Shown piece after piece: positions 11,201-33,127 of a stretch of DNA of 37,330 bases. The notes beneath the pieces are model-generated. The model ran no database searches and was not told the DNA's origin. It was given only the letters and a program-made list of their open reading frames with translations. This DNA comes from Nemertoderma westbladi (lineage: Eukaryota; Animalia; Xenacoelomorpha), in NCBI GenBank assembly GCA_032718475.1, contig JAUCBJ010000285.1, positions 1 through 37,330 of the forward strand, read 5' to 3'. The position numbers were made by a program, and so were the translations under genes. How positions within the stretch are numbered: the stretch's first letter is position 1; each line of letters opens with the position of its first letter.

Positions 11201-13955
11201 GCGCGATGGGTGAAGCACTAATACCAACTGGCGTGCGATATGTAGAGAACGGTTTAGCGATCCGTGTACTTGTAATAGCTGGACCGGGTATAGGAATTCT
11301 GGTCGTCGTCAACTCGCGTATAGTCGGAGTTCTCGCCTCCTGTTCGGCCTTCTGCAGTGCAAACAGTTCTCGCAACTCAGTACCTACACTCGCCCCACAT
11401 TCTTCGATCATTCGCATTCCCTTCTCGGCGATTTCATTCGCCTTCCTGGTCCGTTCTTCGCTCTCTAAGTTTAGTTCCTTGCGCTCGCGTTAGAGTTGAA
11501 GCTCGCATTTCTTCTGTTCACGCTCGAGTTCCTTCTGTTCGCGTTCGAGTTGAAGCTCACGTTCCTTCTGTTTGCGTTCGAGTTGAAGCTCATGTTCCTT
11601 CTGTTTGCGTTCGAGTTGAAGCTCGCGTTCCTTCTGTTTGCGTTCCGCTCGTTCACGCTTACTTATGTCCTCCAACTCTCGTAGCTCTGCATCCAGTGTG
11701 CGCTCCCGTTCCCGCTCGGCCTCCTTCCGTGCTTCCAATGCACGCAAAACTTCCGCCTGTTGTTCTTCCAGTCGGTGTCTTCTTTCCTCCGCCGAGTTGT
11801 GAGAAACAATGGACCTAGCGCACATAACTTTCCCTCGCGCGTGACTAACCTGGGAATCGCCACTGTCTCAAGATGCGTCGTCGGGTGGAGTTAACGTCCT
11901 CTGTCGGATATTGTCCGTCGTCGGTAGCACCTGGCCCGGTAACACCACTCCACTCTGCATCAGCCAGCTGGTAACTTCCCTCTGATACCTGCGCTCTTCT
12001 TTCGCTTGTGTCCTTCTGGGCTCCTCCCGGAGGCGCACCCATGAGGCGGACACCTTTCTACGGAGGGTGGCCCGATGCTTCCTGGGTTCTGTTTTCGGTC
12101 CCCCGATCACACCGGCACAGCTCGTCGAATGTGTAGCCAGATGGGCGGCTACTGTCAACTCACTGTGGCCTGACTGTACATTGAGCCAACTCAAAGTATA
12201 ACAAAGAGTCAACCGGCAGGTAGACCAGTCGATAGCGATCGAGCATCAAGGTCGCCCTTGGGCCTAACCGACGGTCTTGTCCCGAGCGGGCTTGCGCTAC
12301 CCAACATGGAATATTGACACGTTTTCACCTGCCTCACCGGCAGTATTGAGGGGACACCATTCCACAACAATACTGACTAGCTCGAAAGCTAGGAACAAGT
12401 AACCACTTACCAGTCACTGTACACGTGTACTCAACAGATGTTCACAATATCAAGTACACTACGGTAAACACAAAATCGGACACATACCATGCACACACAG
12501 AAGACATAATTGGAAGGACAAAATCGGTGTCAAAATCAGGAGGGACTAGTTGTATCGACTATAGACATCGCGAAAAGAAAGTCGAGAGTCGAGAGTTTAT
12601 TTTACCGTCAGGGCAAAATAACTTGTGTGTACAAAGCATGCTGGGGCGCAGTAAAGTATGGTCCTACTAATACCAGCAGCATCTGGACCATCCGGCAAGG
12701 TTTCCCACACTCACTCACAGTGGCCATACATACAATCACGTGTACTCACGCACCCACAGTGACAAAGCTCATCTCAGACACAAACACACCCAAAGACCAA
12801 TCAGCTGAACATGGAGACAATAACATATAGTATCAAAAAAGCGGAACAGCTGTCGGTCAATGGCACACATCCAAGCCCCAAAGCTAACTGTCACTGGTCG
12901 CCCACATACAAATCACAGTTCACACCACATGAACCACAAATCACGCCATGCCACCACCCATACTGTGTACAGGACTGGTAGTACGGCAACAGGCCGACTA
13001 GATGGTACCACGGCACCATGTCGATTCATGGTTCGCTAGACACAAGGGCCTTCAGTATCTCCCTTGCACTTAGAGACAATTTAACGTGCCCCCAGACCCT
13101 CGCGAGTCTGCCGCCGCCTGCTCAAGACACCCCTATAGAGACCTCATCTCTTTAGGTATCTTGCGTCTCTTCCCGCTCCACTAAGTTTCTCGACTCTGCG
13201 TCACTCACCTGAGTCGCCTGCGCTTGTGATGCCCATAGCAACCAGTTCTCCGTCCTAACTCGTCGAAATCGCTCCAATAACGCGCGGTGCTCCAACAAGG
13301 CTGCCAAAACCCTGTCGTAAACCCTCATCGCCACGTCGCTCGACTGAGAGTCCACTGCTCTCTTCGCTAGGACTGCAAGCTCCTCTGTCTGCTTGAACAA
13401 TGCTGAGTAGTATCCCCTTCTAATCTCTACTAACCCTTCCCTTCCGATGTTACCAGAGTTGGCTAGCATCTTTCTTACCTTATCCGCCGTCCGAGTTATA
13501 TGTCCGGCATGCGCGCGAAGTTTCTTCTTTATCGCTATGTCTAGTTCTCTCTCGCTTACCTGACTCACACTCGGTGGACTTGAAGGATTATTTCGGGAAC
13601 TACGGGTACTCCTTATAGCCGCTGGGACCACGGCACTTACCATACCCACAGTTCTGGAAACTGGGCTCCGGGCTTTCGCTTCTGCTACACTACTCTCCCT
13701 ATCACTCACCTCTGGCCGGGCTGCTGTACAATCCTTCCTTACAGTAGTGGTAGGGGATCCTAATACTATTACTTGAGGTCCTTGTTCTTCCTCACTAGTT
13801 ACTGTCTCGTCCTCCTGTTCACTTACGTCAGCGTCGCTTGCTGCGTCGTCATAGTCGGCATTGTCATCGACAGTTATATTAACGCTATCATCAGTCAGCG
13901 GTCCAGCCGCCGTCTCATAGCTGTCTTATAGTGCCTCCTTCTCTGAGACACTCAT
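8278..13955 (-). pseudogene. Decayed BEL/Pao element B gag-protease region
   Basis: ATG 13955 with an early stop, then LRAHAGHITRT (13152-13709). ORFs 11868-12212, 11490-11825 and 9399-11417 share one frame split by nonsense codons. Gag core QKFMGNHRHW...AMKTLSDLYGN; knuckles CQFC..H..C, CWACLAPGHVRRQC, then a frameshift to CMECGRLHHKLLH; degenerate protease MLDIAS; further frameshifts near 8983 and 8474; cut by the LINE at 8277. Confidence 0.85.
11490..11650 (-). repeat. 33-bp coding tandem repeat (ERKQKERELQL) in gag B
   Basis: About 4 copies of GAGTTGAAGCTC..GTTCCTTCTGTTTGCGTTC encoding an E/R/K/Q coiled coil. Confidence 0.85.
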
Positions 13956-17438: not shown

Positions 17439-17538
17439 GGCACTTCAAATATTGAAAAATACGAGATTCGGAAAATAAGCAAAGTTGAGATTTCAACGCA
17501 CATTTATAGGTTTTCTGGACCGCTGAATCAATTGAAAG
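17439..17538 (-). repeat. Left part of an inverted ~175-bp satellite-like unit split by element C
   Basis: Joined to 28606-28670, its reverse complement matches the units at 28690-29036 (ACTTTCAAT.GATT.AGCGG.CCAGA.AACC.ATAAA..TG.GTTGAAAT). Confidence 0.8.
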
Positions 17539-18527
17539 TGTTGCCGTTATTCCTACACCAGGGGGGAAAAACGCCGATGCTGGAGACGTGACTTAACAGA
17601 CCACCGAGCCCCGGCCAGTCACCGGATATTGATTGTGGGGAGGGAATATTTTCTAAGATGCAAGTTTGCGGTTGAGAAAAGCTGCATTAGTTGGATATAC
17701 TCTTTAATGTAACTGAACTCTGTTGAACCTTGTTCAACAATATTGAAACTTGATTAAGAATAATTTTGGGCTTCCCCAAATCAATATACACCAAATATTC
17801 ACAATAATTATACACGATAATATAAATCCCTACGGTATATTATTTAATAACCCACTGTTCGCTCAGAATTTTAGCCTACCTAATGTTCCTCAGATTTTCC
17901 CTCAGTCCCAGTCTTAGTACCGTAGTGTCGGTGTCGGTCGACCCTTTCGCATGTCCGTCCCACCCCTCACGAACCCCGAAGGGATTGGTCATCGAGAACC
18001 AGTACGGCTTAGGTCAGGGGGCAGTCGTTAGTTGGCCACCTGTTCACGTGTCCGCTCCACCCCTCACGAACCCCGGGGTTCGATCATCGAGAACCAGAAC
18101 GGCTTGGCTACTAAGGGGCCGTCGGTGCCCGTCGCAAATCCCTGACACAAGCAGTCAGCGTTCCGAGTTCTTTTCAGTCTCGTAGTAGCTGCCGTTGGCC
18201 AGGGACCGCTAAGGGCAGTCCTTGTCCTTTAGGCCTGGCGCATTACCAAATCCACCCCTACAGGCAGCAGGAAGTTGGCCAGGGCCTAATAGTACTCAGG
18301 CTAACCTGAATACTGCTTGCATTTTCCATCCCCCCTGGCCCTTATAACTATGAAATTATTCCCGTACCCTGTAAGTTGCCCCAAAGTTCGCCCATAAATC
18401 GCCCCCAGTTTATTGAATGTGCCCAAAACCCATGGTCCCGCACCCAGTAGTAATATCGGAATAATCAATTTTAAATAAATACAAAAATATTCAACTCGCG
18501 TTATGGAAAGTTGAAATACCGCGAACA
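17539..18527 (-). repeat. 3' LTR of element C (989 bp)
   Basis: Direct repeat of 26994-28600 lacking 27401-28018; two substitutions noticed by eye (GATTGG/GATCGG, TTCACG/TTCGCG). Confidence 0.96.
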
Positions 18528-18536
18528 GTCCCCCCC
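18528..18536 (-). promoter_or_regulatory. Polypurine tract of element C
   Basis: Minus strand reads GGGGGGGAC immediately before the TGTTCGCGG LTR start, which fixes the element orientation. Confidence 0.85.
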
Positions 18537-18693
18537 AATGACCTTCGTGAAGTCTGTCGGTCGATTGAGTTTGCGTAGGTCATTCCCAATATAAAAAATC
18601 CCAAATTTAATATTGCATAGTTTTTAATTAATTTGGCCTAGAGTTTGTATAAAAATAAATGTTCGATAAATGTTCCTGGAATATCCCAATCCA

Positions 18694-21294
18694 TTATTTC
18701 TTTTTCTGGTACGCCTTTCGTCTCTTCGCCCTTCGACTCTCATCGATCGCTATGGCTGGTAGAGGAGCGTCAACATCCATTGTGAGTAACGCTTCGGCTT
18801 GTCTCCTGGCGGCTCTTCCTTTCGAAGGCAACGGTATCATGTCGGTTCGTCTTTCCAACTCGGAGTTGCGTGCCTCTAGGAACCATTCTCCGTCACCGAA
18901 CTCCTCTTTATACGAATATAATCGTCTAATAACTTCGAATGGACCGAATAATCCGGCGCTCAGTAGCAGATCCACGTAATGGAAGGGTAGCGAGGCCGAC
19001 GTGTGGAGGCGTTCCGGGAAGGAGAAATATCCGCACGCCATCTCCTGCGCGATATTCCGAGCGTTTCTCCGAAACTTGGTCTTTAAGTGGCTGTTTGCGT
19101 ATGTTTCAAACATGACCATATTTCCCATAGCGGTAACGTCTTTGGTTGGACATTTGATATAGCAGCGGGGGCTAGAGGAATGTCCACGGAAACCGCACGT
19201 GGTGCAGAGGTTATAAAGAATCGGGCAGACGGAAACGTCGTGGCCCGATGTCGCGCAGTATGGGCAATAGAGTATCCCGAGGAGCTGGAGGCATGAATCG
19301 GTAACCCGATTCCTTCTGCTGCGTGGGCACTGCTCCGAACCGCAGTCGCCGCATACCTCCAACTGCATCTCTCGACCGGGGAATATCGGAATCGGGACGC
19401 CGGCGTAGTATTCGAGTCGTCGGTCGCTCTTCGGAATATTCTCGGTGGTCGGTAGCCCGCGGAATGCTGGGCTTTTGCGTAGTATGTTCTCGCTTCGATA
19501 ACCCTCTTTGTGTCCCGCTGGTCTCAGCTCGGACGACCGTTTCTGGCGGTGGATCCATTCAGTTTGCTCGGCGTACCAACGAGTTAGTCGCATAGGGTCC
19601 TGAGGAACGGCGGGTGTAGAAGCTACCGCTGGTCGGCGAAGGGGTGCCGGGGTTTTAGATGGAGGGATACCGAGGAGATCGTCGGGTGTCGGCGCATCGC
19701 TGGGGCCTTCCTCGACCAGTATCGCTGAGCGGGTCCGTTGTTGGCTGGTACTCGGAATCTCCGACGACCAATCTTCGCCGCCCGGGAAAGGATACGGGGA
19801 TAACCGTTGGCATATGTCGCCGAAGTCGCTCAATGCAGCCGTAGTGGCTACCTCTCTCGCGGGGCTACCGGAGCCGCGTGGGGTGTAGACGCCTGCTCTC
19901 TTCATCGGTTCGGCCGAGGCAACCCGTTTGGCGGCTGGTCCATACGCGGCCTCCGGCTCGAGTTGTCGCTTTGGGGTGGAGAGTAGAACACCCTCGTTTA
20001 GCCATATCTCTTCCCCTTCCGAGGAGATCAGAGGCTCCTCCGCACCGAGAAGTTCGGTAATCGTAGGGATGTCGTAAGGTCCGCTCTCGTCCCAGGAATC
20101 GATAACGGCGGGTGTTTTCGATTCTCCCGGTGTAATGTTCTCGACCGCTTTAAACGCATGGTTTATAACCTCGTTCCAATCGTAGTCGACGAAGGAAAGG
20201 GGGACCGCCGTAATAAGGTTATCGAGAGTTTTACAGATAAACTTAGCGACGGTGTAGCATTCCATAACGACGTAGATATAGCTCCGTCGATCGGGATTCT
20301 CCCACCTTTGGTGTATCGTCCACTTCCGATCGACGTCCTTCCATCGACCCTCTCGCTCGCTCTTTATCTCTAATCCCGGGTATCCGCCGTATATTTTATT
20401 ATAGTCCCGGAATTTCTGGGGTTTGAAGTCGATACCGCCGTTGAGCACAGCGAGGTAGCCGATCCCGGATTTCGTCGGTCTCACTTCTTGGAATCCTCGC
20501 ATGAACTCGGCGAATCGTAACCAGGCTAGCAGCGTTTGAGTGTCGATGCAATGGCTAAGTGCGTTGAGGTCGTTTCGTCGGTTTCTTCCTGCGGGAGCGT
20601 TCGCGTAGTCGTTCCGGACGTCCGCCTTGATATCCGACCCGATTTTAATGACGTCGAAGTCGAAGAGGATCTTTTGGATATCCGGAGGCAGCAACCAGAT
20701 CGCTCCGGCTGCCTGCACTTCCTGTCTGGGTGTCAGGAATATTCGGCACACCAGTACCAAACCGTCCAGGGTTCCGAGGACGACGACTAAGGATCGACCG
20801 TATTCTTTCGCCCCGTACTTTTCCTGGTAGTCGTCGCGGTTTTGGATAATCGATACGCGTTCCTCTCGAAGCGTCGCCGTACACTCCGACAGGTTTTCCC
20901 AGTGGGCGAGGTACGTACTCTTGTCGTCGACGAAACTTTGACATCTCGCCAACGTAATCGCTTTCGAGGTGGGCGTCGCGTTTCCCTCGTTGTCGTAGAT
21001 CAAACATCGGGATCTGTAGACGCTCTGCCGGAACGTTTCCCAAAACGACGAATCGTCCCCTCCGGTTGCCTTTGCGTTCCGAGTTCTTTTCAGTCTCGTA
21101 CTAGCATCGGCTAACCGGAGGGCTCGTAGATTCTTAGAATCCGGTCCCTCTCGCCCGGTGAATTTAACTTCTCGTACGTTCTCATTTAGCAGAATGCTCC
21201 ACTTTGTATCAAAGTCAGGGGATCCAGGTTGCGAATATTCCAGTAGATCTATCGTGTTACGTAATTCGCCGATAATTTGGCGATTTGGGTCCAT
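18694..21294 (-). CDS. Accessory 866-aa protein: degenerate DEDDy (WRN/RNase D-like) 3'-5' exonuclease-like domain, disordered linker, Cys/His zinc knuckles
   Basis: Intact ORF in the env position. LPPDIQKILFDFDVIKIGSDIKAD, CIDTQ, SGIGYLA and RWENP..YIYVVME resemble the WRN-type exonuclease pattern (by eye). C-terminal CGDCGSEQC, CPYCATSGHDVSVC, CTTCGFRGHSSSPRC; basic tail RRAKRRKAYQKKK. Confidence 0.75.
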   Translation of the reverse strand: MDPNRQIIGELRNTIDLLEYSQPGSPDFDTKWSILLNENVREVKFTGREGPDSKNLRALRLADASTRLKRTRNAKATGGDDSSFWETFRQSVYRSRCLIYDNEGNATPTSKAITLARCQSFVDDKSTYLAHWENLSECTATLREERVSIIQNRDDYQEKYGAKEYGRSLVVVLGTLDGLVLVCRIFLTPRQEVQAAGAIWLLPPDIQKILFDFDVIKIGSDIKADVRNDYANAPAGRNRRNDLNALSHCIDTQTLLAWLRFAEFMRGFQEVRPTKSGIGYLAVLNGGIDFKPQKFRDYNKIYGGYPGLEIKSEREGRWKDVDRKWTIHQRWENPDRRSYIYVVMECYTVAKFICKTLDNLITAVPLSFVDYDWNEVINHAFKAVENITPGESKTPAVIDSWDESGPYDIPTITELLGAEEPLISSEGEEIWLNEGVLLSTPKRQLEPEAAYGPAAKRVASAEPMKRAGVYTPRGSGSPAREVATTAALSDFGDICQRLSPYPFPGGEDWSSEIPSTSQQRTRSAILVEEGPSDAPTPDDLLGIPPSKTPAPLRRPAVASTPAVPQDPMRLTRWYAEQTEWIHRQKRSSELRPAGHKEGYRSENILRKSPAFRGLPTTENIPKSDRRLEYYAGVPIPIFPGREMQLEVCGDCGSEQCPRSRRNRVTDSCLQLLGILYCPYCATSGHDVSVCPILYNLCTTCGFRGHSSSPRCYIKCPTKDVTAMGNMVMFETYANSHLKTKFRRNARNIAQEMACGYFSFPERLHTSASLPFHYVDLLLSAGLFGPFEVIRRLYSYKEEFGDGEWFLEARNSELERRTDMIPLPSKGRAARRQAEALLTMDVDAPLPAIAIDESRRAKRRKAYQKKK

Positions 21295-21851
21295 ATTTAC
21301 GATTATATCCGTTACAAATTAGATCAGTTAATTATAAGTCCAGAAAGTCTGAAACTATAGCGATAGCAGAATAATTCAGTTTTTTTTATTTAATTCAGTT
21401 TATTAAATAACATTGCTATATAGACATCTATCATCTTATTGCTAATACATTCAGCATTTACAGTTACTATAGCTATACATAATATCCAACCAGTTTTTTA
21501 TGACTTTTTTGTCCTTTTTTTTCCAATTCTTTTCTTTGACCTCTTTTATACCTTTTTTTTGTCTTTTTTCATTTCATTATTATTTCATCTCATTTCATTT
21601 ATTTCCACATATATTTCAACACATTTAGTTCCACCATTTATTTCACATTTATTTATTTCCACATCATCATTGGGTTTATAGCCCCCCGGCTATCATCATT
21701 TGTTATAAGCGCAGCACCAGGGTGCGCATCATTTCATTTTCATCAGTATACGCGTCATCATTCAGGTTTATAGTAGAGTTGTCTGATCCTTTTCATCGTT
21801 TCCAACTATATTCAATCATTTTCTTTGGTTAATCTTTGTCGTGGAAGGGGT

Positions 21852-22262
21852 GTTACGCGTCAATCTGGGATCTACAGCTGGACTCGTTACACCGCCTACG
21901 CCCCAAACTGCGCACGTAACGGACAATGAAGACGCTAGGAGTGAAGTCACGTGGGTGCACCAGGGACCCACCAGAATAACACTCCCAACAACATAAAGCT
22001 CAGTCGACGAAGTCATGTGGGATGGGGTTACGCAACATTCTGGGATCTACAGCTGGACTCGTTACACCGCCTACGCCCCAAAATCCACGCAACGGTCCCA
22101 CCAGAATAACGCGACTGAGAAACATAAAACCCTCTATCGTCGAAGTCATGTGGATGCACCATGGACCCACCAGAATAACGGGATAGAGGGGGTGTTGCGC
22201 GGCAATCCGGGATCTACAGCTGGACTCGTTACACCGCCTACGCCCCGAACTGCGCACGCAAC
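21852..22262 (-). ncRNA. Cluster of six predicted structured RNA modules (two families, three copies each)
   Basis: An invariant 38-mer at 21867, 22042 and 22209, and a second motif at 21938, 21999 and 22130, each closed by complementary arms that differ between copies. Confidence 0.65.
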
Positions 22263-22541
22263 GGACAACATAACATACTGCAATGAATACAATGAATTCC
22301 ACTTCAAATCTTTTCCATTTCCAATAATCCAATATCATTGGTCCCGATGACCAAAATCAGGGTAAACAATACATAAACGACCCTGCGTCAGTCGAAACAT
22401 CTGCAGGGTGATGCTGGACTCCACATAACACACGAGGAAACACAAATACCATTGCGTGGTTACAGTTGGTTTAAGGGGGGTCCATAACTCGTTGTCGATA
22501 AATCACAGTTTTTAAGAGTTTGTCAACATGATGAGAAGGGT

Positions 22542-23894
22542 TTAAACGCATTTATAATTGTCACCAATGTCTGCAGCAGGATCCGTAGTAGGGAACTTAT
22601 CACCTCTTGTAGAATCACCACTGTCATTGCCTTCAAGAAGGCACAGCTTCTGGATAGGGCGTTGGTAGTGGCCCTTTGCCGTTCGTATCGTCACAGTCCT
22701 CGCAAGTCCGTCTTTGCTTGGGTGTATGGTCACGACCCGCGCCACAGGCCAGTGAACGCGGTCTTTGAGATCTTCTTTAACTAGCACCATGTCGCCAACT
22801 GCGACGTTCCGGTAGGTGTTGTTCCATTTCCTCCTGGTCCGGAGGGTTATGAGGTATTCCTGGGCCCAAATTCTCCACCAATGCGCTGCCAACGCTTGGG
22901 CCTTTTTCCAGTTTGTATGTTTCGCGATCTCGTTGGGATCCGGGAACATGGTTTCCGGGAGGAGGTGGGTTTTGGGTCTCCCCAGTAGATGGTTAGGAGT
23001 GAGGGACTCAACTGAGGCGTTCGCCATCCGGGTATTATGGCAGATTAGTCCGTGCTCTCCCATTATTGGTGTCAATGTTATCAACATCATTATTATCATC
23101 AACAACCTTATTAGCCACCAAAGCATGGGCACGCGCCAATGTCCGTCTTTAAACGTGGCCTGGTCGAGAACGTCCATACAATATTGGTCCTCTTCGGATG
23201 GATTTTCGTCCTTTTCCGCGAACTCCTGGGTCTCCAAATTAAAATATTTCGTCATCTCTCGTTGGGTTTTCTCGGTTTCCAGAAACAAATCCTCGTCGAG
23301 ATCCGAAGCTGAGCAGTAACCCACGGAGGTTACATTCTCTTTAATCTGACATTTGGGAAGGTAGGTATAGGTGTCCGTGGTTTCCTCCTTAATGCCGCAG
23401 AGTGTCCATCCCATTATTGTTCGTTCAGCATAAAATCCGTCATCCTGGTTTATAGATCGGGCGATATCTCCGGTGGGGATGTGTAGTTCCGGTGTATCAA
23501 GTCCGATCAGTAGGGTGATACGGTTTACGTCCAACTGCGGACACCTCAGGTCTACATCGTCCCGGTCCAATTGTATGAGGGGGGCGTACTCGGCTGATTG
23601 TCGGAACCGCACCCGGAGGTCTGTGTGTACCAAGGCGTTCTTTATGGTTAACTTAGCCGTTTCGTAGCCCTTCATCACTCCTTCCATCTGGAGTTGCACC
23701 TCCCCGGACTCTACCTCTCTGTTATCGGTGATGGTTTGTATGGGCCGTTTACAAGGCTCATATTCTAGGCCGAGTTGCTCGAGAAAATCCCGGTCGATGA
23801 TGGTTCCGTCGGACCCGTTATCGAGGAATGCGAGTGTCGTCAAAGATTTGCCGACTCCTTGGATCCTTACTGGGATTACCTTTGCGAAAACCAT
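22542..23894 (-). CDS. Aspartic protease fused in frame to the BEL integrase C-terminal (DUF5641-like) region; RT-RNaseH-IN core deleted
   Basis: AFLDNGS; RTIMGWTLCG; RT N-terminal remnant DGHWRVPMLW; then directly SLTPNHLLG, WWRIWAQEYL, VGDMVLV, WPVARV, DGLARTV, RPIQKLCLLE. Confidence 0.9.
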   Translation of the reverse strand: MVFAKVIPVRIQGVGKSLTTLAFLDNGSDGTIIDRDFLEQLGLEYEPCKRPIQTITDNREVESGEVQLQMEGVMKGYETAKLTIKNALVHTDLRVRFRQSAEYAPLIQLDRDDVDLRCPQLDVNRITLLIGLDTPELHIPTGDIARSINQDDGFYAERTIMGWTLCGIKEETTDTYTYLPKCQIKENVTSVGYCSASDLDEDLFLETEKTQREMTKYFNLETQEFAEKDENPSEEDQYCMDVLDQATFKDGHWRVPMLWWLIRLLMIIMMLITLTPIMGEHGLICHNTRMANASVESLTPNHLLGRPKTHLLPETMFPDPNEIAKHTNWKKAQALAAHWWRIWAQEYLITLRTRRKWNNTYRNVAVGDMVLVKEDLKDRVHWPVARVVTIHPSKDGLARTVTIRTAKGHYQRPIQKLCLLEGNDSGDSTRGDKFPTTDPAADIGDNYKCV

Positions 23895-23905
23895 GTAGCG
23901 GCGAT

Positions 23906-26509
23906 TTATAAGTTAATCGTGGCCGAAATATTTGTTACTTGTGGTGTAGCGGTGGAGATTTTAAACGGGTTGGTTTCTCTCCGTTGGGTTGTCCGGGTTC
24001 CTTTGAAGATGTGGTTTGTTTCTCCTCTTCGCCTGGCTTCGATCCGAAAGGGGAGGGTAGTAAAATCGAAGTTCGCGGGGATGTGGAGGAGCGTGTGATG
24101 GCGTTGGTCGTTACAGACAGTACAGCATGATCTTTGGTCGCACTCCCGAACATAGTGACCTGTTCCAAGACACCGGAAGCATCCTCGGTGTTTCATTATC
24201 GCCTCGAAGCGTGGGACAAGTTCGGCGAACTGAAACTTTCTGCAGAATTCCACTTTGTGTTTCTCCCCACAGAAGAGACATATAGTGGAGGCTGTGGTGC
24301 CTTCCCTTTCGGGTGCCCAATTCGCTAGGTAGCATGCCCATTCTTCTGCTAAGGTCGGTTCCTCGTAATCCTCGTCATCCGAGTCCTCAGCCATACTGAT
24401 GGCCATCGCACTCACAGGAGTAGGGCGGAATCTTGGGTTTGGAGTGGGTGCCCTGCTCTGGTAATTGCTCTCCATTGCGTCCAACTTGGCGAGACTTTGT
24501 TTCGAGAACATCGAGTCATTCATGGCTTCGGAGATATCGTCCAGGAATGCCGACATTTCGAGGAAGCTGGGATCTTGATCTGGATGTCTGCGCCGGAGAT
24601 CTACGCATTTATAGGCCCACTTACTTTGCAGCCATCCGGGGAACTTCCGGGCGATCTGTCGGAGGTTTAGAATGTTGTTCACCTGGTCCTCCTTATTTAA
24701 GGGTTTCAGAGTGTAGTAGGCATCCTTCATGGAATCTGAGAATTCCTGGAGGTTCTGTGGGTCCCCTAGTGATCCCGCGTCTTGTATCAGTTTCTCTAGA
24801 GTTTTATTAATTATAGTTCCGGTATTTCCGTATCTTTTATCTAGAGTTTTCCATGCGTCATAGTATGCCTCATGAGAACCTCCCTCAAAACATGCAACAA
24901 TTCTGCGTGGTTTGTCACCCAGGTATTGCGATAAATATACCAATTTCTGTGCGTCGGCTATGTCCGTTGATCCGATCTGCGCAAAGAACCGTTTCTTGAA
25001 TCTGAGGTAATCGACGGGATCTCCTTCGAAGGTGCGAATCTCCATCTTCGGCATGGCAAGGCGGTTCTCCAACGCCCGGATGATGCTGACGTCGTCTGAA
25101 CTGGAGTGACTCGGAGGGTTATAGTCATTGGCACTCACTCCCATACTTGATGGATCAATAATAGGTGGAGTTTTAATAATGACGCGGCTGCGAGTTTGTG
25201 GTGTTGATGTAAATGGGTTGTTTGATCGGGGAGTGGCGTCCCGTTCCGAGTCCTTTTCAGGCTCGTACTTGGGTACACTCGCTGTCGTGGTGTTGGATAG
25301 GAAATAGGGTTCCTCATTCTTTAGCCTAGCCGGTGGGGGATGGAACACCGGTGCTTGTGCCGATAGCGTAGACTGTTTGGTAGGCGGGATTTCGGGTTTC
25401 GGAAGTTTCGCCGCTGTCGGTATAAATGACTTTTCTAATTCCGGTACCGGGATTGGTTCATATTCCTGATCTATATCCCTCTCCCAGTCCTCGTAGAGTT
25501 GAATATCTCGTTCTATAAGTGCGGCTTCGTATTCCGCGAGTTTTGCAATATCCGCGTTCTTTTTGTGGATGAGAATTGCTTGGGCCTCGGCGTGTTGTTT
25601 ACGCATTTCTGCTTCCCATTTACGTTGTTCGATCTCCCGTTCGGCCTCTCGTCCGCGTTGTTCGGCCTCCTGTTTGCGTTGTTCGGCCTCGTGTTTGCGC
25701 TGTTCGGCCTGTCGTTCGTCCTCTCGTTTGCGTTGTTCGTCTTCTCGCCTGCGTTGTTCGGCCTGTCGTTCGTCCTCTCGTTTGCGTTGTTCGTCCTCTC
25801 GCCTGCGTTGTTCGGCTTCCTGTTCACGTTGTTCGGCCTGCCGTTCGGCCGCTTGTTCGGCCTCTCGCCTTTGTGTTTCTGCAGCTAATACATCTTGCTC
25901 GGCTTGCAGTTGAATATACTCATCTTCCATCCGAGCTTTGAGGGCTAATGCCTTCCGCTCTCGCAGTTGGTCTCGGAGTGGCGGCGCCCCTTGAGAACTG
26001 CGCGCTGAGCCGGATATCTCGCTCCTAGCGCTGGAGTGCTGATTTCTGGTGGACCCCATTCTTTTGCGATGTACTCCTGTCCTGATGCTGGAGGATCGTA
26101 CTGATTCCGCGTCTGTTCTTTCAGCCCTCTTGTAATACTGTTCCTCATAGCCTCTCACAAGGCTGAGGGTCCTCCGGTGTTGTTTGCGGAACCCATCTAG
26201 ATGTACAACGTGTTCTTCCAGCTTGGGGTAGTTTTCCAGATCGGTGGGGGGAACAAGCTCTTGGTACGCCTGTATCATTCTTTCGTACCGCTGTAGGATA
26301 TTTCGGATACTTTGAAGCTGAGTTTGTACCTCATTGAGGGGGGTTTTGACTCCCTTGAGTTGTTTCTCCATCCGTTGATACGCTCGGGTTACTCCGCCTT
26401 TAAGAGCCCCTAACCGACGGGTCATGTTTTTGACGTTTGGTACCTCGTCGGCTTCCGAGTCTGTGTGGTGATCCATCTCGTCGGTATCGGATACGTTATT
26501 TGTTGTCAT
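23906..26509 (-). CDS. gag: BEL/Pao Gag, 867 aa
   Basis: LKGGVTR N-terminus, EQR-rich coiled-coil repeats, RTFEGDPVDY...AWKTLDKRYGN core, three knuckles CLFCGEKHKVEFC, CFRCLGTGHYVREC, CTVCNDQRHHTLLH. Confidence 0.93.
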   Translation of the reverse strand: MTTNNVSDTDEMDHHTDSEADEVPNVKNMTRRLGALKGGVTRAYQRMEKQLKGVKTPLNEVQTQLQSIRNILQRYERMIQAYQELVPPTDLENYPKLEEHVVHLDGFRKQHRRTLSLVRGYEEQYYKRAERTDAESVRSSSIRTGVHRKRMGSTRNQHSSARSEISGSARSSQGAPPLRDQLRERKALALKARMEDEYIQLQAEQDVLAAETQRREAEQAAERQAEQREQEAEQRRREDEQRKREDERQAEQRRREDEQRKREDERQAEQRKHEAEQRKQEAEQRGREAEREIEQRKWEAEMRKQHAEAQAILIHKKNADIAKLAEYEAALIERDIQLYEDWERDIDQEYEPIPVPELEKSFIPTAAKLPKPEIPPTKQSTLSAQAPVFHPPPARLKNEEPYFLSNTTTASVPKYEPEKDSERDATPRSNNPFTSTPQTRSRVIIKTPPIIDPSSMGVSANDYNPPSHSSSDDVSIIRALENRLAMPKMEIRTFEGDPVDYLRFKKRFFAQIGSTDIADAQKLVYLSQYLGDKPRRIVACFEGGSHEAYYDAWKTLDKRYGNTGTIINKTLEKLIQDAGSLGDPQNLQEFSDSMKDAYYTLKPLNKEDQVNNILNLRQIARKFPGWLQSKWAYKCVDLRRRHPDQDPSFLEMSAFLDDISEAMNDSMFSKQSLAKLDAMESNYQSRAPTPNPRFRPTPVSAMAISMAEDSDDEDYEEPTLAEEWACYLANWAPEREGTTASTICLFCGEKHKVEFCRKFQFAELVPRFEAIMKHRGCFRCLGTGHYVRECDQRSCCTVCNDQRHHTLLHIPANFDFTTLPFRIEARRRGETNHIFKGTRTTQRRETNPFKISTATPQVTNISATINL

Positions 26510-26697
26510 TGTAACGCCTCGTCGATGGCGAGATACGCGATGTCGTAAAACAGTTCCTCGTAGGTATTGTACTCAGCTTGAACCACCCGAACAGTAATCC
26601 TGAATCGTCCGACGTTCGTTCCTTGTACCTCAACTTCGACGTGCCAGATTCCTGGCTCAACTTGAATTATATCAATGGGTGTGATCGATACTTCCAT
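26506..26697 (-). CDS. 63-aa upstream ORF overlapping the gag start (ATGA)
   Basis: ATG start; its TGA overlaps the gag ATG; protein-like alternating hydrophobic pattern followed by an acidic helix. Confidence 0.5.
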   Translation of the reverse strand: MEVSITPIDIIQVEPGIWHVEVEVQGTNVGRFRITVRVVQAEYNTYEELFYDIAYLAIDEALQ

Positions 26698-26863
26698 TCC
26701 CTGTTAACAACTCTCCAAATATGTGATCTGCCGACTACGAATTGGTTAGATCGAGTTTGCTGATTAATTAAACCACGACTTTGTCTCAACTCAAATACCA
26801 GAGTTTCCTCGTAGTGGGTGCTGGCAAGCACGTAGAGAGTTTTTGAAGAGTATTGAAGGATTC

Positions 26864-26993
26864 TCAACTTCCACCAGTTGAAGTTGACCACGATAATTAT
26901 TCTTAATTTTGACACCCTGTCAAAATTAACCACGTGAATTATTCTTAATTTTGACACCCTGTCAAAATTAACCGCATTAATTATTCTTAATTT
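26864..26993. repeat. 42-bp-period hairpin repeats at the expected PBS position
   Basis: TTAATTTTGACA-CCC-TGTCAAAATTAA at 26903-26929 and 26945-26971; variant TCAACTTC-N8-GAAGTTGA at 26864-26887; AATTATTC at 26895, 26937 and 26979. Confidence 0.9.
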
Positions 26994-28600
26994 TGTTGCC
27001 GTTATTCCTACACCAGGGGGGAAAAACGCCGATGCTGGAGACGTGACTTAACAGACCACCGAGCCCCGGCCAGTCACCGGATATTGATTGTGGGGAGGGA
27101 ATATTTTCTAAGATGCAAGTTTGCGGTTGAGAAAAGCTGCATTAGTTGGATATACTCTTTAATGTAACTGAACTCTGTTGAACCTTGTTCAACAATATTG
27201 AAACTTGATTAAGAATAATTTTGGGCTTCCCCAAATCAATATACACCAAATATTCACAATAATTATACACGATAATATAAATCCCTACGGTATATTATTT
27301 AATAACCCACTGTTCGCTCAGAATTTTAGCCTACCTAATGTTCCTCAGATTTTCCCTCAGTCCCAGTCTTAGTACCGTAGTGTCGGTGTCGGTCGACCCT
27401 GTCGCGTGTCCGTTCCACCCCTCACGAACCCCGAAGGGAACGATCATCGAGAACCAGCACGGCTTGGCTAAGGGTCGGTCCAGTCGGTAGACTCTGTCGC
27501 GTATCCGTACCACCCCTCTCGAACCCCGAAGGGTTCGGTCATCGAGAACCAGTACGGCTTGGCTAGGAGTCTGTCATGTCGGTGGACCCGTTCGCGTGTC
27601 CGTTCCACCCCTCACGAACCCCGAAGGGTTCGATCATCGAGAACCAGAACGGCTTGGCTAGGGGTCCGTCAGTTCATCACAGAAACCCAACCACCTAGGC
27701 TTTCCGAGTCCGTTTCAGGCTCGTAGTCGCTTCAGCAGCCGAGAAACTGCTCCGAACAGTCGGTAGGCCAGTAGAGTCTAGTCGAGTCTAGTCCTTTGTC
27801 TTTCGACCCCATCGCGTGTCCGTTCCACCCCTCACGAACCCCGAAGGGAACGATCATCGAGAACCAGAACGGCTTGGCTAAGGGGTCTGTCGTCGGTTCC
27901 CGTCGCAAATCCCAGTCAAGCAGTCAGCGTTCCGAGTTCTTTTCAGGCTCGTAGTAGCTGCCGTTGACCCGAGACCGCTAAGGGCAGTCCTTGTCAAACC
28001 AGTCCTGTGGCCAGCCCTTTCGCATGTCCGTCCCACCCCTCACGAACCCCGAAGGGATCGGTCATCGAGAACCAGTACGGCTTAGGTCAGGGGGCAGTCG
28101 TTAGTTGGCCACCTGTTCGCGTGTCCGCTCCACCCCTCACGAACCCCGGGGTTCGATCATCGAGAACCAGAACGGCTTGGCTACTAAGGGGCCGTCGGTG
28201 CCCGTCGCAAATCCCTGACACAAGCAGTCAGCGTTCCGAGTTCTTTTCAGTCTCGTAGTAGCTGCCGTTGGCCAGGGACCGCTAAGGGCAGTCCTTGTCC
28301 TTTAGGCCTGGCGCATTACCAAATCCACCCCTACAGGCAGCAGGAAGTTGGCCAGGGCCTAATAGTACTCAGGCTAACCTGAATACTGCTTGCATTTTCC
28401 ATCCCCCCTGGCCCTTATAACTATGAAATTATTCCCGTACCCTGTAAGTTGCCCCAAAGTTCGCCCATAAATCGCCCCCAGTTTATTGAATGTGCCCAAA
28501 ACCCATGGTCCCGCACCCAGTAGTAATATCGGAATAATCAATTTTAAATAAATACAAAAATATTCAACTCGCGTTATGGAAAGTTGAAATACCGCGAACA
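26994..28600 (-). repeat. 5' LTR of element C (1607 bp)
   Basis: TG...CA termini; direct repeat of 17539-18527 plus 618 bp; followed by the TSD. Confidence 0.96.
27394..28195 (-). ncRNA. Array of six ~70-nt conserved cores forming predicted rod-like hairpins inside the LTR
   Basis: Cores start at 27401, 27496, 27591, 27811, 28019 and 28116; covarying closing stems; C(UUCG)G cap on the element-sense strand in units 1-5 (shortened in unit 6). Confidence 0.7.
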
Positions 28601-29036
28601 GAAAGTATTATAGAACCCTGAAGACTTAGTGGTTCGGCATTTTTGGTGCACCAAAATTAGGGAGGGGCACTTTTTCCCTGATTGTGCTGTACCAATAATG
28701 ACGTACCAGTAAGACTTGAGGCTTCAATAATACTTTCAATCGATTCAGCGGTCCAGATAACCTATAAAAATGGGTTGAAATGAAAACCTTGTGGTATTTT
28801 CTGAATATCGTAATTTTGAAAATTTGATGTAAGTCTACTTGCCACGCCCTAATTTTGGTGCACCAAAAATGATGTACCACTAAGAATTGAGACTTCTATA
28901 TTACTTTCAATCGATTAAGCGGGCCAGAAAACCCATAAAAATGCGTTGAAATCAAAACTCCTGAGTATTTAACGAATATTGCAATTTTGAAAATTTGAAG
29001 TGCCCCGCCCTAATTAATTATAGTGCACCAAAAATT
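28601..29036. repeat. ~175-bp satellite/MITE-like repeat units with palindrome TTTTGGTGCACCAAAA
   Basis: Remainder of the inverted unit (to ~28670), then two diverged forward units (~28690-28860, ~28860-29036). Confidence 0.75.
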
Positions 29037-29340
29037 CCACTTCCCTTACATTCTTATATATGTAGAGTGCAGAGTGTAGTAGAGTGCTGCATACGAATCA
29101 GAATCAGTAAAAAAAGCCCCTATATAAAGAATTACTATCTCACAAATGACCTTGTAAAACTCGAAAATTTCAAAAAATTTCTGCTGGGGACCAAATTTTG
29201 AGGTGGCACCCACATCGAGAAGTTGAAATCTAATTGCAACGCCGTTTTTTTGCAAAAGATGCGCCATTAAATTTGACTAATTCTCGTAAACAATTGGGCT
29301 GGTACATAATGTTGTTGCATAGATACAGTAATTAAAAACT

Positions 29341-29386: not shown

Positions 29387-30159
29387 TGTCTACTTCATTA
29401 GTGGAGACTCCTTTACTGTTCGAAACTGACTCTAGATTCCCTTTAGAAAGTACGAATCCAACATTAACCAGTAGCCAAATCCCAGTAGCTCAGACTAGTA
29501 GCAAGCCTGGAGAACGAAAATCGTTTGGGCAAGAGTTGTCCCTGTCGCCCCGATGGGCCATCCAGCCACTCCGTTGGGTCTCCCGCACCTGCGGATAGAG
29601 GAAGGGCGGCGGAAGATGGGCGACCTTTTCCAGTAACTGACCCAGGATAAGTTAAAATCCGCGGGTCAGTTGAGGGATTTGGAAGGTACATTTAACTCAC
29701 TAAATGGAACAGTACGAGATAATAAAATTGAATTGCAAGAATACAGCAACGTATCGCTCTAGAAAGTGACAAATTAGTAAATATAAAAAAGGGTATAGCA
29801 CCACCCCCTGTAACGCCTTTCAACATCTTAGGTCTGAATCATATCATGCGCAAGGTGTAGAGCCTACACGTATCTATACTGCTAGTGAAGTGGAAACTCC
29901 TGTAGCAAACCATACTAATCGTATTAATAAACCAACTTATGATATCCCATATGCGCCTGACTATAATCCTAGAAATATATATTCTGACAATTTGATATTG
30001 AACAATACGATGGCTCAGTAGAGTTTTACGCGTCTGGTGGCTAGAACAGAGGCCTGTCAAGCCATAAAGGTGGAAGAGGTTGTCAAGTTTAATGGAGATG
30101 AGATGAAGTGGCTGCCTTTTAATGAATATTATAAGGATAACATACAAAACTCTGTATTA

Positions 30160-32759
30160 TCAAATGGAGAGAAGCTACGATTCCTCATCAAGTGCTTGGA
30201 AGGTCCCCCGTAATTGATGGCATTAAAGTTCATTGGACACCCTGATGGACTAAGAAAAGTTTGGAATCCACTAAACATCAGGTATGGTAATAGGACTTAC
30301 ATAGCTAGATACTTGTATGCGAAAGTAGTAGTGCCCAGGAGGTTCCCTAGTAATGGAATCAGAGTTTTCCGATGAGGTTCAGGAGATCTGTAGACAGTTA
30401 GACTGACTGGTTAACTCCTTTATGTTACACCGAGTATGAGAGTCAAACCTCATACGATGAGGATAGCGGACCAGACATCACTCGTTATTACATAGCGAGT
30501 TTGATAAGGTGAGTGAACAAAGGCTTTGATAAACAACAAAGTACGGATCCCTAGAGCGGAGTTAAAAGCGGCATTATACACTACTGCCATCGGCAGAAAC
30601 ATAATGGAACAGATAGAATAATAAATAATCCATTGGATAAAACTGTTTATTGGACAGATGCATTACTCGTTCTAGAATATCTTACTAACGAAGTCTGCCA
30701 GTTCAGCATCTTTGTCACCAACCGAGGAGCTGTTATACTTAGTCGGACTAATATAGACCAATGGAGACATTGCCCTGGAACCATTTATCCAGCCAACATC
30801 GCCTCCAGAGGAGCTACACCTAAAGAGCTGATGGATACGCCAGATGACCCTGGAGGTGGCCCTGACTTCCTAAGTAAAGAGGGGGATGAATGCCCCCCCC
30901 CCCCCATCTTACTATGGCTGAGAACAGACAAGCCAAGGGAGCAGAGACCGTTAAACCAAAAACTCGGATGGGTAAATCAAAACTGTTCAAAACAGCGATA
31001 GATCTGTCGGTACTGCATACTGCAGATGACGATAATAAAGATCCTAAGCAAGTCCCAGTTAAGGCAGTTGTTTATATATGAGAGCGGGATTGGAAGACTG
31101 GTATTCCTGATGTCTTTGAAGGACTCTCTCCTATTATTCACAGAGCGATGGCGTATTATATTTCGTGGAATAGGCTTTGTAAAGCCATAACCTATTCAAA
31201 ACGGTGTTTCCATCACCACTATTCCAAGCCTAAGACAACCGGTGATGCCATCCCATGAGTATTTGAAAAGGTCAATGCCATTAAAGACCTTCCCACTTAT
31301 TGGCTACCTACCACGTTTCTTGCTGATAAGATCACTTACCAGGAGCTTGATGATACCAACAAGCAACTACTGAGACTTCTACAATGTCAATGAGGATCCT
31401 GAGAAGTATATCCTGTTGTTGAAAAATCCACAGAGGATTTATTTTCTAGCATGATGTTTGATGGGTTAATACGTGTCGGAGGGAGATTAACCAACGCACC
31501 CCTTTCCTTTGACACAAAGTTTCCCATACTGGTTGGTAATCTTGAAATACAAATCAAGATGATTGTAGACGTACACAGTAGGCTTTATCATGCTGGTAGG
31601 TAACGAGTTCTTAGCGAAATTAGAACTCGCTATTATTTTAATAAGCCGCTTAAAGCGTTAAATCAAGTTCTTAGGAACTGTATACCCTGTAGGAAAGCAT
31701 TTAGTAGGCCTTTAACCCAGCGAGTGGCAGAATTACCTAGGGAAAGAGTAAGCTGTTATGAACCACCCCTTACTAATACCGGCATGGATTTATTTGGCCC
31801 TATTGAAGTCTATCGCGCTAGAACTATAGTCAAGCGATGGTGCGTTATATTTGTTTGTATGACTTGTAGAGCAATTCATCTGGATATGGTGAATGTTTTT
31901 TCTACCAATAGTTTCATACTCAGTTTACGCTGACAAATCACTCGTTTTGGGACTAGCAACACCATTATTTCGGATAAAGGTACCAACTTCATTGGAGCCA
32001 ACAAGATTAAAGATTACATCAACAACTGGAACCAACGACAGGTAGACGATCAGGTGAAAGTGAAAGCATCCAGCTGGACCTTCAACACCTCCGATGCTCC
32101 TTGGTGGGGAGGAAGTTGGGAGAGACTTATATGTCAAGTTTCAAGTACATTTCACTTTGTAATGTCGTGCCGCGCATATCTCACTGACGAGCTCCTGCGA
32201 ACACTGATGGAATAAATCGCCGCCTACCTGAACAAGAGACTGCTTATGCCAGTCTCCTCAAGTCCAGATTCCCTAGAAGCGCTAACACCCGCACATTTTC
32301 TACTCATGAAGCTGGTGGCCATGCTTCCAACTTCGGATATAAATGACGGGGATGAATACTGCAAACAAACTTGGCAAACTTTTGCAGTTATTATCCCTCC
32401 GTTTCGCTGATCATTTTGAGAAATACTATCTTCCGACGCTGCAACTCTGAACTAAATGGTTTGCGCTGCAACAAAACATCAGCTCTGGAGACATGTTTTT
32501 AATTGTCGATTCGGATCTTCCCCGTAAGAGGTGGCAGATAGGTCGTATCATCGAGACCCATATATCCAACAACGGTTTAGTGCGATCAGTAGAACTCCTT
32601 GTTATGAGGCGAAACCACAAGAAGGAAGGAATAGTCTTCGAGACTCAACAATTCAATCGCCCAGTTGGACCTCTGTGTTTATTAGGGCGAGACCGAGAGT
32701 TGTCCGGCAACTATGGTAAGCAGGAGACTCTACCGACGACTACCTCCCAGTTCCAATGA
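30160..32759 (+). pseudogene. Decayed, internally deleted BEL/Pao element D (gag fragment, RNase H, integrase, DUF5641-like tail)
   Basis: EKLRFLIKCLEGPP...RYGN (~30170-30290); IPRAEL, YWTD, QWRHCPG..PANIASRG; GLIRVGGRL, H..H/CIPC, TGMDLFGP, RAIHLD, SDKGTNFIGA, PWWGGSWERL, LTPAHFL, WQIGRI..GLVRSV; many stops and frameshifts; protease and RT absent. Confidence 0.88.
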
Positions 32760-33127
32760 ATATCTATGGATGCAATAACTCATTATTTATGGGAGTGGGT
32801 ATGTGACAACTTTTCTTTCTTTTGATTGTCTCTATTTTTATATTTATGTACGATTTGTTATGTAATTTTATTTTATATTCGTTTTATTTAATTTTATTTA
32901 GTGGAATAAATTTATAAACAATTATTCAGTAAATTAGTGCAATATCTTACATATTTTTAGATTAATTAGTGTTACAATATATATTTTAGATAACGACGGG
33001 AATAAATTTCTTTTTATCCCTTCCTTACTGTCCGTATATTATTATAAATACGTGATTACAGTAAGATGAAGTACTTATTAAAGTACAATCTACCTTGGTT
33101 CTACTGTACTTTAGGCATTATTGGTAA

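What the first reader, a model, noticed from the sequence alone, without database searches (positions are those of the whole stretch)
18156..28264. Sarcin-ricin/loop-E-like GAAA hairpin dispersed in both LTRs and embedded inside gag and ORF3
The motif (sense) A[G/C]UA-CGAG-[C/A]CU-GAAA-[A/C]G[G/A]-A-CUCG-GAA occurs at 18156-18191, 21073-21106 (ORF3), 25240-25273 (gag), 27699-27730, 27925-27960 and 28229-28264. ORF3 and the LTR share an exact 27-mer GCGTTCCGAGTTCTTTTCAGTCTCGTA. It is read in different frames in the two genes (YEPEKDSER versus STRLKRTRN), so conservation is at nucleotide level. Closing stems differ but pair (UGC/GCA, CCC/GGG, CAGC/GCUG). The coding copies have AGUA opposite GAA, the bulged-G motif of the rRNA sarcin-ricin loop (AGUACGAGAGGAAC), with a GNRA cap. 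Inference: a distributed packaging or protein-loading signal. Its presence in ORF3 suggests ORF3 is a long-term adapted part of the element.
Basis: partly seen in the sequence, partly recalled or inferred. Interest (0 to 1): 0.8.

Follow-up and report, generated by a model that had tools for sequence, protein, structure and literature searches.

The report
Repeated RNA hairpin signal in retrotransposon
A young, defective BEL/Pao retrotransposon carries six near-identical copies of a 26-base motif in its terminal repeats and inside two of its genes, each predicted to sit at the tip of a hairpin with an S-turn loop, and likely uses them as docking sites for an RNA-binding protein, possibly its own extra protein.

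Summary
Six copies match one 26-nt pattern exactly, against 0 expected. They amount to about four independent lineages. The core is 22-25/26 identical while the flanks have diverged yet still pair, with compensatory changes. The host is a young non-autonomous BEL/Pao element whose ORF3 looks like a DEDDy exonuclease with zinc knuckles.

Corrections:
- It is a loop-E (bulged-G/C) motif, not a sarcin-ricin loop mimic: about 7 bp separate motif and cap, not 1.
- The LTR 'ACUA' form is the variant modelled for potato spindle tuber viroid.
- The invariant cap CUGAAA-N-G fits a T-loop at least as well as GNRA.

Additions: eight K-turn-like hairpins sit beside it in the LTRs, two further repeated modules lie before ORF3, and a self-priming-like PBS would place the LTR copies in the 3' UTR.

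Best reading: a multi-copy RNA protein-loading site for export, localisation or stability, probably read by ORF3. Gag packaging is a rival. The gag copy's stem is weak. No related DNA was found, so cross-family conservation is untested. Three look-ups found no earlier scan note of it.

The parts
17539..28600 (-). Non-autonomous BEL/Pao LTR retrotransposon, TG...CA ends, 5-bp target-site duplication GAAAG (17534-17538, 28601-28605)
26994..28600 (-). 5' LTR (1607 bp) with 3 copies of module A and 6 of module B
17539..18527 (-). 3' LTR (989 bp); 2 mismatches to the 5' LTR in 990 aligned bases (the alignment began one base outside the LTR); lacks 618 bp of the repeat array; keeps 1 A and 2 B
28234..28259 (-). 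Module A core (loop E with bulged C, CGAG/CUCG stem, CUGAAA-N-G cap), 5' LTR
27930..27955 (-). Module A core, 5' LTR, tandem paralogue of 28234
27702..27727 (-). Module A core, 5' LTR, diverged flanks, U.C under the cap
25244..25269 (-). Module A core in gag (from codon 414, linker before DUF1759); bulged G; weak lower stem
21057..21122 (-). Module A hairpin in ORF3 (core 21077-21102, from codon 65); bulged G; long lower stem
18161..18186 (-). Module A core, 3' LTR (twin of 28234)
27418..28166 (-). Module B x6: K-turn-like hairpins at 28133-28166, 28036-28071, 27828-27863, 27608-27643, 27513-27548, 27418-27453; UUCG cap in 5 of these 6
17963..18093 (-). Module B x2 in the 3' LTR (17963-17998, 18060-18093)
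21844..22268 (-). Module C x3 (21844-21926, 22019-22101, 22186-22268) and module D x3 (21943-21980; 22009-22110, which encloses one C; 22142-22179), between the pol remnant and ORF3
23906..26509 (-). gag (DUF1759, coiled-coil repeats, three zinc knuckles), open frame
22542..23912 (-). pol remnant: aspartyl protease and DUF5641 only; no RT, RNase H or integrase core
18694..21294 (-). ORF3, 866 aa: WRN/DEDDy-like domain look-alike, two nucleocapsid-like knuckles (from aa 677 and 697), basic C-terminal tail
26979..26991 (-). PBS-position 13-mer, 2 nt after the 5' LTR, complementary to LTR 27208-27220 (self-priming-like); repeated at 26937-26949 and 26895-26907
18528..18537 (-). G-rich polypurine tract before the 3' LTR

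Best explanation
Module A is a six-copy, 26-nt motif predicted to fold on the element's sense RNA into a loop-E (S-turn) internal loop, a short stem and a UGAAA cap held at the tip of otherwise unrelated long stems, and it likely serves as a repeated docking site for an RNA-binding protein, probably the element's own ORF3 product, that would mark the element's RNAs for export, localisation or protection. Shown: the copies, their positions, core conservation against diverged but pairing flanks, the neighbouring K-turn-like and intergenic modules, and the zinc knuckles and basic tail of ORF3. Inferred: the 3D motifs, a transcription start near 27220 that puts the LTR copies in U3 (the 3' UTR), a subgenomic ORF3 RNA, the identity of the binder and the step it controls. 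The logic would resemble Rev/Rex with their response elements, or the several zip-codes of ASH1: cis sites kept even inside coding sequence and amplified by tandem duplication in the LTR. The copy near the start of ORF3 could give feedback on ORF3's own message. A defective copy would keep these sites because it still needs them in cis.
For: Core identity is 22-25/26 in all 10 pairs of 5 distinct copies. Flank identity is 11-21/50 in 9 of the 10 pairs (Fisher p 6e-5 to 3e-9); the tenth is the recent paralogue pair at 38/50. The flanks still pair: ORF3 -32.4 kcal/mol, reached by 0 of 841 sampled ORF3 positions and 0 of 1000 shuffles; the LTR copies were reached by 0, 1, 6 and 14 of 1000 shuffles. 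Three of the four pairs under the loop show double changes; 1 of 500 shuffles reached the covariation score, and slid registers pair 13-44% against 87%. Invariant positions that could change synonymously are unchanged: 9 of 22 in ORF3 and 8 of 22 in gag. The G/C variation falls on the bulged position, and a C-U-A triplet with U below is the variant modelled for PSTVd (PMC6633198, passages). The K-turn descriptor hits 7 of the 8 module-B units on the sense strand and nothing on the antisense strand of the element. A four-sequence ORF3-family profile hits retroviral nucleocapsid structures (best E 0.0016). The Atlas look-alike is a WRN-type exonuclease cluster (score 0.93, PF01612 in 38% of members). 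DEDDy ORF3s are known in LTR elements, and inactive DEDD derivatives keep RNA binding (PMC5408684).
Against: Only one copy of the element is in hand: no genome is held and no related DNA was found, so conservation across families is untested. The gag copy's flank stem is modest (-9.6 kcal/mol; matched by 12% of 842 gag positions and 24 of 1000 shuffles). With 150-nt flanks the modelled hairpin probability falls to about 0.15 for gag and 0.06 for copy 27702 (no loop-E bonus modelled). The antisense strand folds as well for the ORF3 and gag copies (z -6.8 vs -6.6; -2.0 vs -2.0). Module B shows no covariation above shuffles (184-344 of 500) and module C is borderline (31 of 500). The covariation count rests on 5 related rows and is not a probability. 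No Pfam family hits ORF3 and both structure models failed (pLDDT 32). No good splice donor was found in the leader. Nothing tested here links ORF3 to the motif.
Confidence: 0.4

Rival explanations
1. A distributed packaging signal read by the three zinc knuckles of Gag, kept because this RT-less copy must be packaged in trans.
For: The element is young (2 LTR mismatches, intact target-site duplication), lacks RT and the integrase core, and keeps an open gag with three knuckles. One copy lies in gag.
Against: Five of six copies lie in ORF3 or the LTRs, so an ORF3 subgenomic RNA would carry them and they would not single out genomic RNA (inferred from the acceptor-like site at 21349). The gag copy is the weakest fold. 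Modules C and D fit a genome-only signal better.
Confidence: 0.2
2. A mimic that recruits host proteins: the loop-E arm resembles the 5S rRNA loop E/helix IV/loop D arm (bound by L5 or TFIIIA-type proteins) or a transport zip-code, while module B recruits an L7Ae-family protein such as 15.5K.
For: RPL5 binds the PSTVd loop E (PMC6164485, passages). L7Ae-family proteins bind K-turns, and module B has the G.A/A.G pairs and the C-G flank (PMC5579392, passages). ASH1 carries three zip-codes in coding sequence and one after the stop (PMC4615550, passages). The likeness of dimensions to the 5S arm is recalled, not tested.
Against: No Rfam family, 5S included, reaches significance. The core sequence is far more invariant than a shape-only mimic needs.
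Confidence: 0.2
3. An RNA-RNA docking module: UGAAA is a T-loop (or GAAA a tetraloop) that docks on internal loops of modules B-D to compact or dimerise the RNA.
For: UGAAA is the dominant riboswitch T-loop sequence, consensus YGNRA (bioRxiv 10.1101/2022.12.26.521914, passages). The base after UGAAA varies and breaks the U-A pair in one copy. Module C's loop begins UGUAA.
Against: Those T-loops are followed by two bulged bases; here there is one. No receptor was identified, and this does not explain the invariant loop E.
Confidence: 0.08
4. Functionless copies spread by template switching or gene conversion, or a DNA-level binding site.
For: ORF3 and the LTRs share an exact 27-mer. LTR arrays expand and contract (618-bp difference). 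Both coding copies sit outside the conserved protein domains. TE-encoded proteins that bind tandem DNA motifs are known (VANC; PMC5735166, passages).
Against: A pasted 27-mer would not land inside the best flank stem sampled in ORF3. The flanks diverged with compensatory pairs while the core did not. The K-turn pattern is sense-strand only.
Confidence: 0.1

Closest known systems
Bulged-G / loop E / sarcin-ricin domain motif (5S rRNA, 23S/28S SRL, PSTVd loop E)
   Same: AGUA/GAA in the coding copies; the C-U-A triplet form with U below, as modelled for PSTVd, in three LTR copies (PMC6633198)
   Different: About 7 bp with a bulge separate it from the cap, not one pair as in the SRL; multi-copy in a retroelement; no Rfam match
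Rev/RRE, Rex/RxRE, Rec/RcRE systems of complex retroviruses
   Same: Accessory protein with a basic tail plus structured RNA sites in coding sequence or LTR (PMC10746203, passages; LTR location of RxRE/RcRE recalled)
   Different: Here many small identical modules rather than one branched element; the protein is large, with an exonuclease-like domain and knuckles; no export signal or binding shown
DEDDy-exonuclease ORF3 of bdelloid LTR retrotransposons (Juno, Vesta)
   Same: Extra ORF after pol with DEDDy-like sequence features (PMC5408684)
   Different: BEL/Pao host element; added nucleocapsid-like knuckles; ExoI Glu aligns to Gln157, so it may be inactive; no RNA motif described in the parts of that paper I read
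ASH1 mRNA zip-codes E1/E2A/E2B/E3
   Same: Several stem-loop signals in the coding region and 3' UTR on unrelated stems (PMC4615550)
   Different: ASH1 elements share almost no sequence; here 22 of 26 bases are invariant
VANDAL/VANC anti-silencing system
   Same: TE-encoded accessory protein with target motifs amplified as tandem repeats (PMC5735166)
   Different: VANC targets are short DNA motifs in non-coding regions; here structured, RNA-like and also inside ORFs
Tf1/Tj1 self-priming LTR retrotransposons
   Same: PBS complementary to a sequence in the element's own LTR (PMC4600332)
   Different: Described for Ty3/gypsy chromoviruses (PMC3601003); this element is BEL/Pao; start site not mapped

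Membership tests
BEL/Pao LTR retrotransposon | TG...CA LTRs with target-site duplication | tested here: met
BEL/Pao LTR retrotransposon | DUF1759 Gag with three knuckles, protease, DUF5641 | tested here: met
   Gag relatives carry PF03564, four of five also PF05380
BEL/Pao LTR retrotransposon (autonomous) | RT, RNase H, integrase core | tested here: not met
   absent: non-autonomous derivative
Loop E / bulged-G motif | A[G/C]UA opposite GAA, flanked by helices on both sides | tested here: met
   6 of 6 copies; C variant known (PMC6633198)
Loop E / bulged-G motif | S-turn geometry (probing, UV crosslink or structure) | not testable with these tools
   needs experiment
Sarcin-ricin loop proper | Bulged-G motif one base pair from a GAGA tetraloop | tested here: not met
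   about 7 bp spacing and a GAAA/UGAAA cap
GNRA tetraloop | GNRA closed by a Watson-Crick pair in all copies | tested here: inconclusive
   U-A in 4 of 5 distinct copies, U.C in one
T-loop (FMN/cobalamin type) | YGNRA followed by two bulged bases | tested here: inconclusive
   UGAAA in all copies but one following base
K-turn (module B) | C-stem, 3-nt bulge, G.A and A.G pairs, NC stem | tested here: met
   descriptor hits 7 of 8 units, 0 antisense; pairs as in PMC5579392; bulge length recalled; covariation not above shuffles
K-turn (module B) | L7Ae/15.5K binding and kinking | not testable with these tools
   needs experiment
DEDDy exonuclease (ORF3) | Domain match and D-E-D-Y-D residues | tested here: inconclusive
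   Atlas look-alike 0.93; no Pfam hit; aligned residues D155, Q157, D225, Y339, E345; folds failed
Rev-like export system | Protein binds the element, shuttles and exports intron-containing RNA | not testable with these tools
   only a basic tail and knuckles seen
Any described Rfam family | Reaches the family's gathering score | tested here: not met
   best E 1.3 and 1.4, far below gathering scores
Self-priming (Tf1 type) | PBS complementary to the 5' end of the element's own RNA | tested here: inconclusive
   13-bp complement, 1 of 5000 block shuffles; start site unmapped

The most novel reading that the evidence does not exclude
An invertebrate BEL/Pao lineage has evolved a complex-retrovirus-like post-transcriptional system from scratch: a modular RNA code (loop-E/T-loop, K-turn and two further hairpins) written across LTRs and coding sequence, read by a captured DEDDy pseudo-nuclease with nucleocapsid-like knuckles, in an element that primes reverse transcription from its own RNA.
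Probability: 0.22. Interest if true: 0.85.

Novelty: new variant of a known kind. Interest (0 to 1): 0.63.

Why it matters
Cis-acting RNA signals of BEL/Pao elements and the function of DEDDy-type ORF3 proteins are open questions; PMC5408684 states that the activity of these ORFs is undemonstrated. This element offers short, repeated, naturally varied candidate sites and a candidate reader in one locus, so the question can be tested directly on 60-90-nt RNAs. It also suggests that some LTR tandem repeats, usually read as DNA enhancers, are arrays of RNA 3D motifs, and that self-priming may occur outside the chromoviruses.

Tried and rejected
Relatives:
- The exact motif A pattern gave 0 hits in viral, metagenome and prokaryotic genome collections; the module B pattern gave 0 in viral contigs.
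- The relaxed A pattern gave 19 viral hits (many near-identical) and 120 of about 122 prokaryotic hits. Of these 139, 6 close the upper stem and 1 closes both stems; that one has a weak flank, so they look like chance.
- ORF3 loci: 0 of 34 viral and 0 of 145 metagenome candidates were confirmed. Word-indexed ORF3 searches found nothing new. The three distant ORF3 relatives are unnamed singletons whose DNA I could not read.

Other checks:
- Structure predictions were unusable, so no fold search was run.
- Self-cleaving ribozyme: the cap lacks the hammerhead CUGANGA core (recalled consensus), and Rfam has no hit.
- No tRNA genes in the window.
- One search used a mis-registered structure and is superseded.
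- The other BEL remnants in the window do not carry motif A.

Literature and scan notes:
- Searches listed no paper describing such modules in a BEL/Pao element, and search 68 none describing self-priming in one. I judged most hits by listing only, and the library lacks most subscription journals.
- Scan notes: nothing relevant.

Expression, RNA ends, splicing and variation among genomic copies remain unexamined.

Full report
The element. The finding lies in an 11-kb LTR retrotransposon on the minus strand, 28600 to 17539, with TG...CA ends and a GAAAG target-site duplication. Gag has DUF1759 and three knuckles. The pol remnant has a protease and DUF5641 but no RT, RNase H or integrase core, so this is a non-autonomous BEL/Pao derivative. 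The LTRs differ at 2 of 990 aligned bases, and the 3' LTR lacks 618 bp of a repeat array, so the insertion is young. No genome is held for the window.

ORF3. It is 866 aa with no Pfam hit. It has three distant relatives among 1.84 billion representatives; the best shares both an N-terminal domain and a Cys-rich C-terminal region (29% identity each). The N-terminal domain looks like WRN-type exonucleases in the Atlas (0.93; PF01612 in 38% of that cluster). A four-sequence family profile hits retroviral nucleocapsid structures (E 0.0016), and the protein ends in an Arg/Lys-rich tail. DEDDy-type ORF3s are described in rotifer LTR elements with unknown function (PMC5408684; I read parts 1-3 of 5, abstract to discussion). 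The ExoI glutamate aligns to Gln157, so the nuclease may be inactive. That rests on four sequences, and both folds failed.

The observation. Six exact copies were found, none expected by chance, and no further copies by covariance model. The 27-mer and the differing frames are as reported. The copies form about four independent lineages: 28234 with its twin 18161 and paralogue 27930; 27702; gag; ORF3.

Is it selected as RNA? Cores are 22-25 of 26 identical in all ten pairs, while flanks are 11-21 of 50 identical in nine of them. The flanks still pair. The ORF3 copy sits on a -32.4 kcal/mol stem, unmatched by 841 sampled ORF3 positions or 1000 shuffles, and the LTR copies were matched by 0-14 of 1000 shuffles. 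Three of the four pairs under the internal loop show double changes, and slid registers lose pairing. Nine of 22 invariant positions in ORF3 and 8 of 22 in gag could change synonymously and have not.

Evidence against selection. The gag copy is modest (24 of 1000 shuffles; 12% of gag positions). The gag copy and copy 27702 lose the hairpin when folded with 150-nt flanks (probability about 0.15 and 0.06). The antisense strand folds equally well for the two coding copies. Five related rows give no true probability. Overall I put selected RNA structure at about 0.8.

What motif is it? The internal loop is a loop-E / bulged-G motif by sequence. The one variable loop-E base is the bulged one: G in both coding copies, C in the LTR copies. 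A C-U-A triplet with U below is the form modelled for potato spindle tuber viroid (PMC6633198, passages). The cap is CUGAAA-N-G. One copy breaks the U-A pair that would close a GAAA tetraloop, and UGAAA is the dominant riboswitch T-loop (bioRxiv 10.1101/2022.12.26.521914, passages), though those loops have two trailing bases. Rfam has no match.

It is not alone. The LTRs carry eight copies of a second hairpin (module B) with a 3-nt bulge, tandem G.A/A.G pairs and mostly a UUCG cap. A K-turn descriptor hits 7 of the 8 on the sense strand and nothing on the antisense strand (pair definitions from PMC5579392, passages), but covariation among these young copies is not above shuffles. Between the pol remnant and ORF3 lie three copies each of modules C and D. 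One D encloses a C at its tip, as expected of a structural module; covariation in C is borderline.

Where in the RNA? The 13 bases starting 2 nt after the 5' LTR are complementary to LTR 27208-27220 (1 of 5000 block shuffles), and the PBS-position sequence does not start with the TGG usual for tRNA priming (recalled). This matches the layout of self-priming elements (PMC4600332, passages), described for chromoviruses (PMC3601003, passages). It would put the start near 27220 and all LTR modules in U3, that is in the 3' UTR. The alternative is a TATA-like word at 28550 and AATAAA at 28487, which would put them in the 5' leader. An acceptor-like TTTCAG at 21349 precedes ORF3, but no good donor was found. 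If ORF3 has its own RNA, module A is on both RNAs, while C and D are only on the full-length one.

Mechanism. I commit to a repeated protein-docking site for export, localisation or protection of the element's RNAs, most likely read by ORF3 (0.40). It would work like Rev/Rex systems (PMC10746203, passages) or ASH1 zip-codes (PMC4615550, passages) without being a member of either. Rivals are Gag packaging (0.20), host-factor mimicry (0.20; RPL5 binds viroid loop E, PMC6164485, passages), RNA-RNA docking (0.08), and neutral or DNA-level copies (0.10; compare VANC, PMC5735166, passages). No binding was tested.

Novelty. Each ingredient is known. I found no description of this motif, or of such a module set, in a BEL/Pao element (searches, mostly judged by listing). 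I also saw PMC8579622 (abstract only), PMC3362945 and PMC6338049 (passages); none describes it. No supplements were read. No relatives were found in the viral, metagenome or prokaryotic collections, so the claim rests on one element. Verdict: real, likely functional, a new variant of a known kind; interest 0.63.

Noticed in passing
window 26979-26991 with 27208-27220: Self-priming-like PBS in a BEL/Pao element: a 13-nt complement to the LTR, 2 nt from the LTR end, repeated three times in a 42-nt tandem unit that also holds a 12-bp hairpin.
   Followed up: partly
window 27418-28166 and 17963-18093 (-): Eight K-turn-like hairpins. A lower 4x4 loop shows C.C changing to U.U on both sides in two units.
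   Followed up: partly
window 21844-22268 (-): Modules C (GUA/GUA internal loop, 10-nt cap starting UGUAA) and D (internal-loop module with variable tip), three each; candidates for a genome-only packaging signal.
   Followed up: partly
window 23030-23130 (-): The protease region and integrase tail are joined in one open frame through about 100 nt of unrelated-looking sequence; gag and this remnant are in different frames.
   Followed up: no
window 21300-21480 (-): A-rich stretch with AATAAA words followed by a TTTCAG acceptor-like site before ORF3 and no clear donor; could reflect trans-splicing or an internal promoter.
   Followed up: no
window 27082-27100 and 27229-27245: Near-perfect 17-nt inverted repeat in the LTR spanning the proposed start site.
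   Followed up: no
window 17439-17542 and 28601-29038: The element is inserted into an array of inverted repeats of about 170 bp (MITE-like or satellite).
   Followed up: no
window 8474-13925 (-), 29700-32760 (+), 7344-8237 and 33386-35608: Two further decayed BEL/Pao-like elements without motif A, two 99%-identical non-LTR RT fragments and a third RT fragment on the opposite strand.
   Followed up: no
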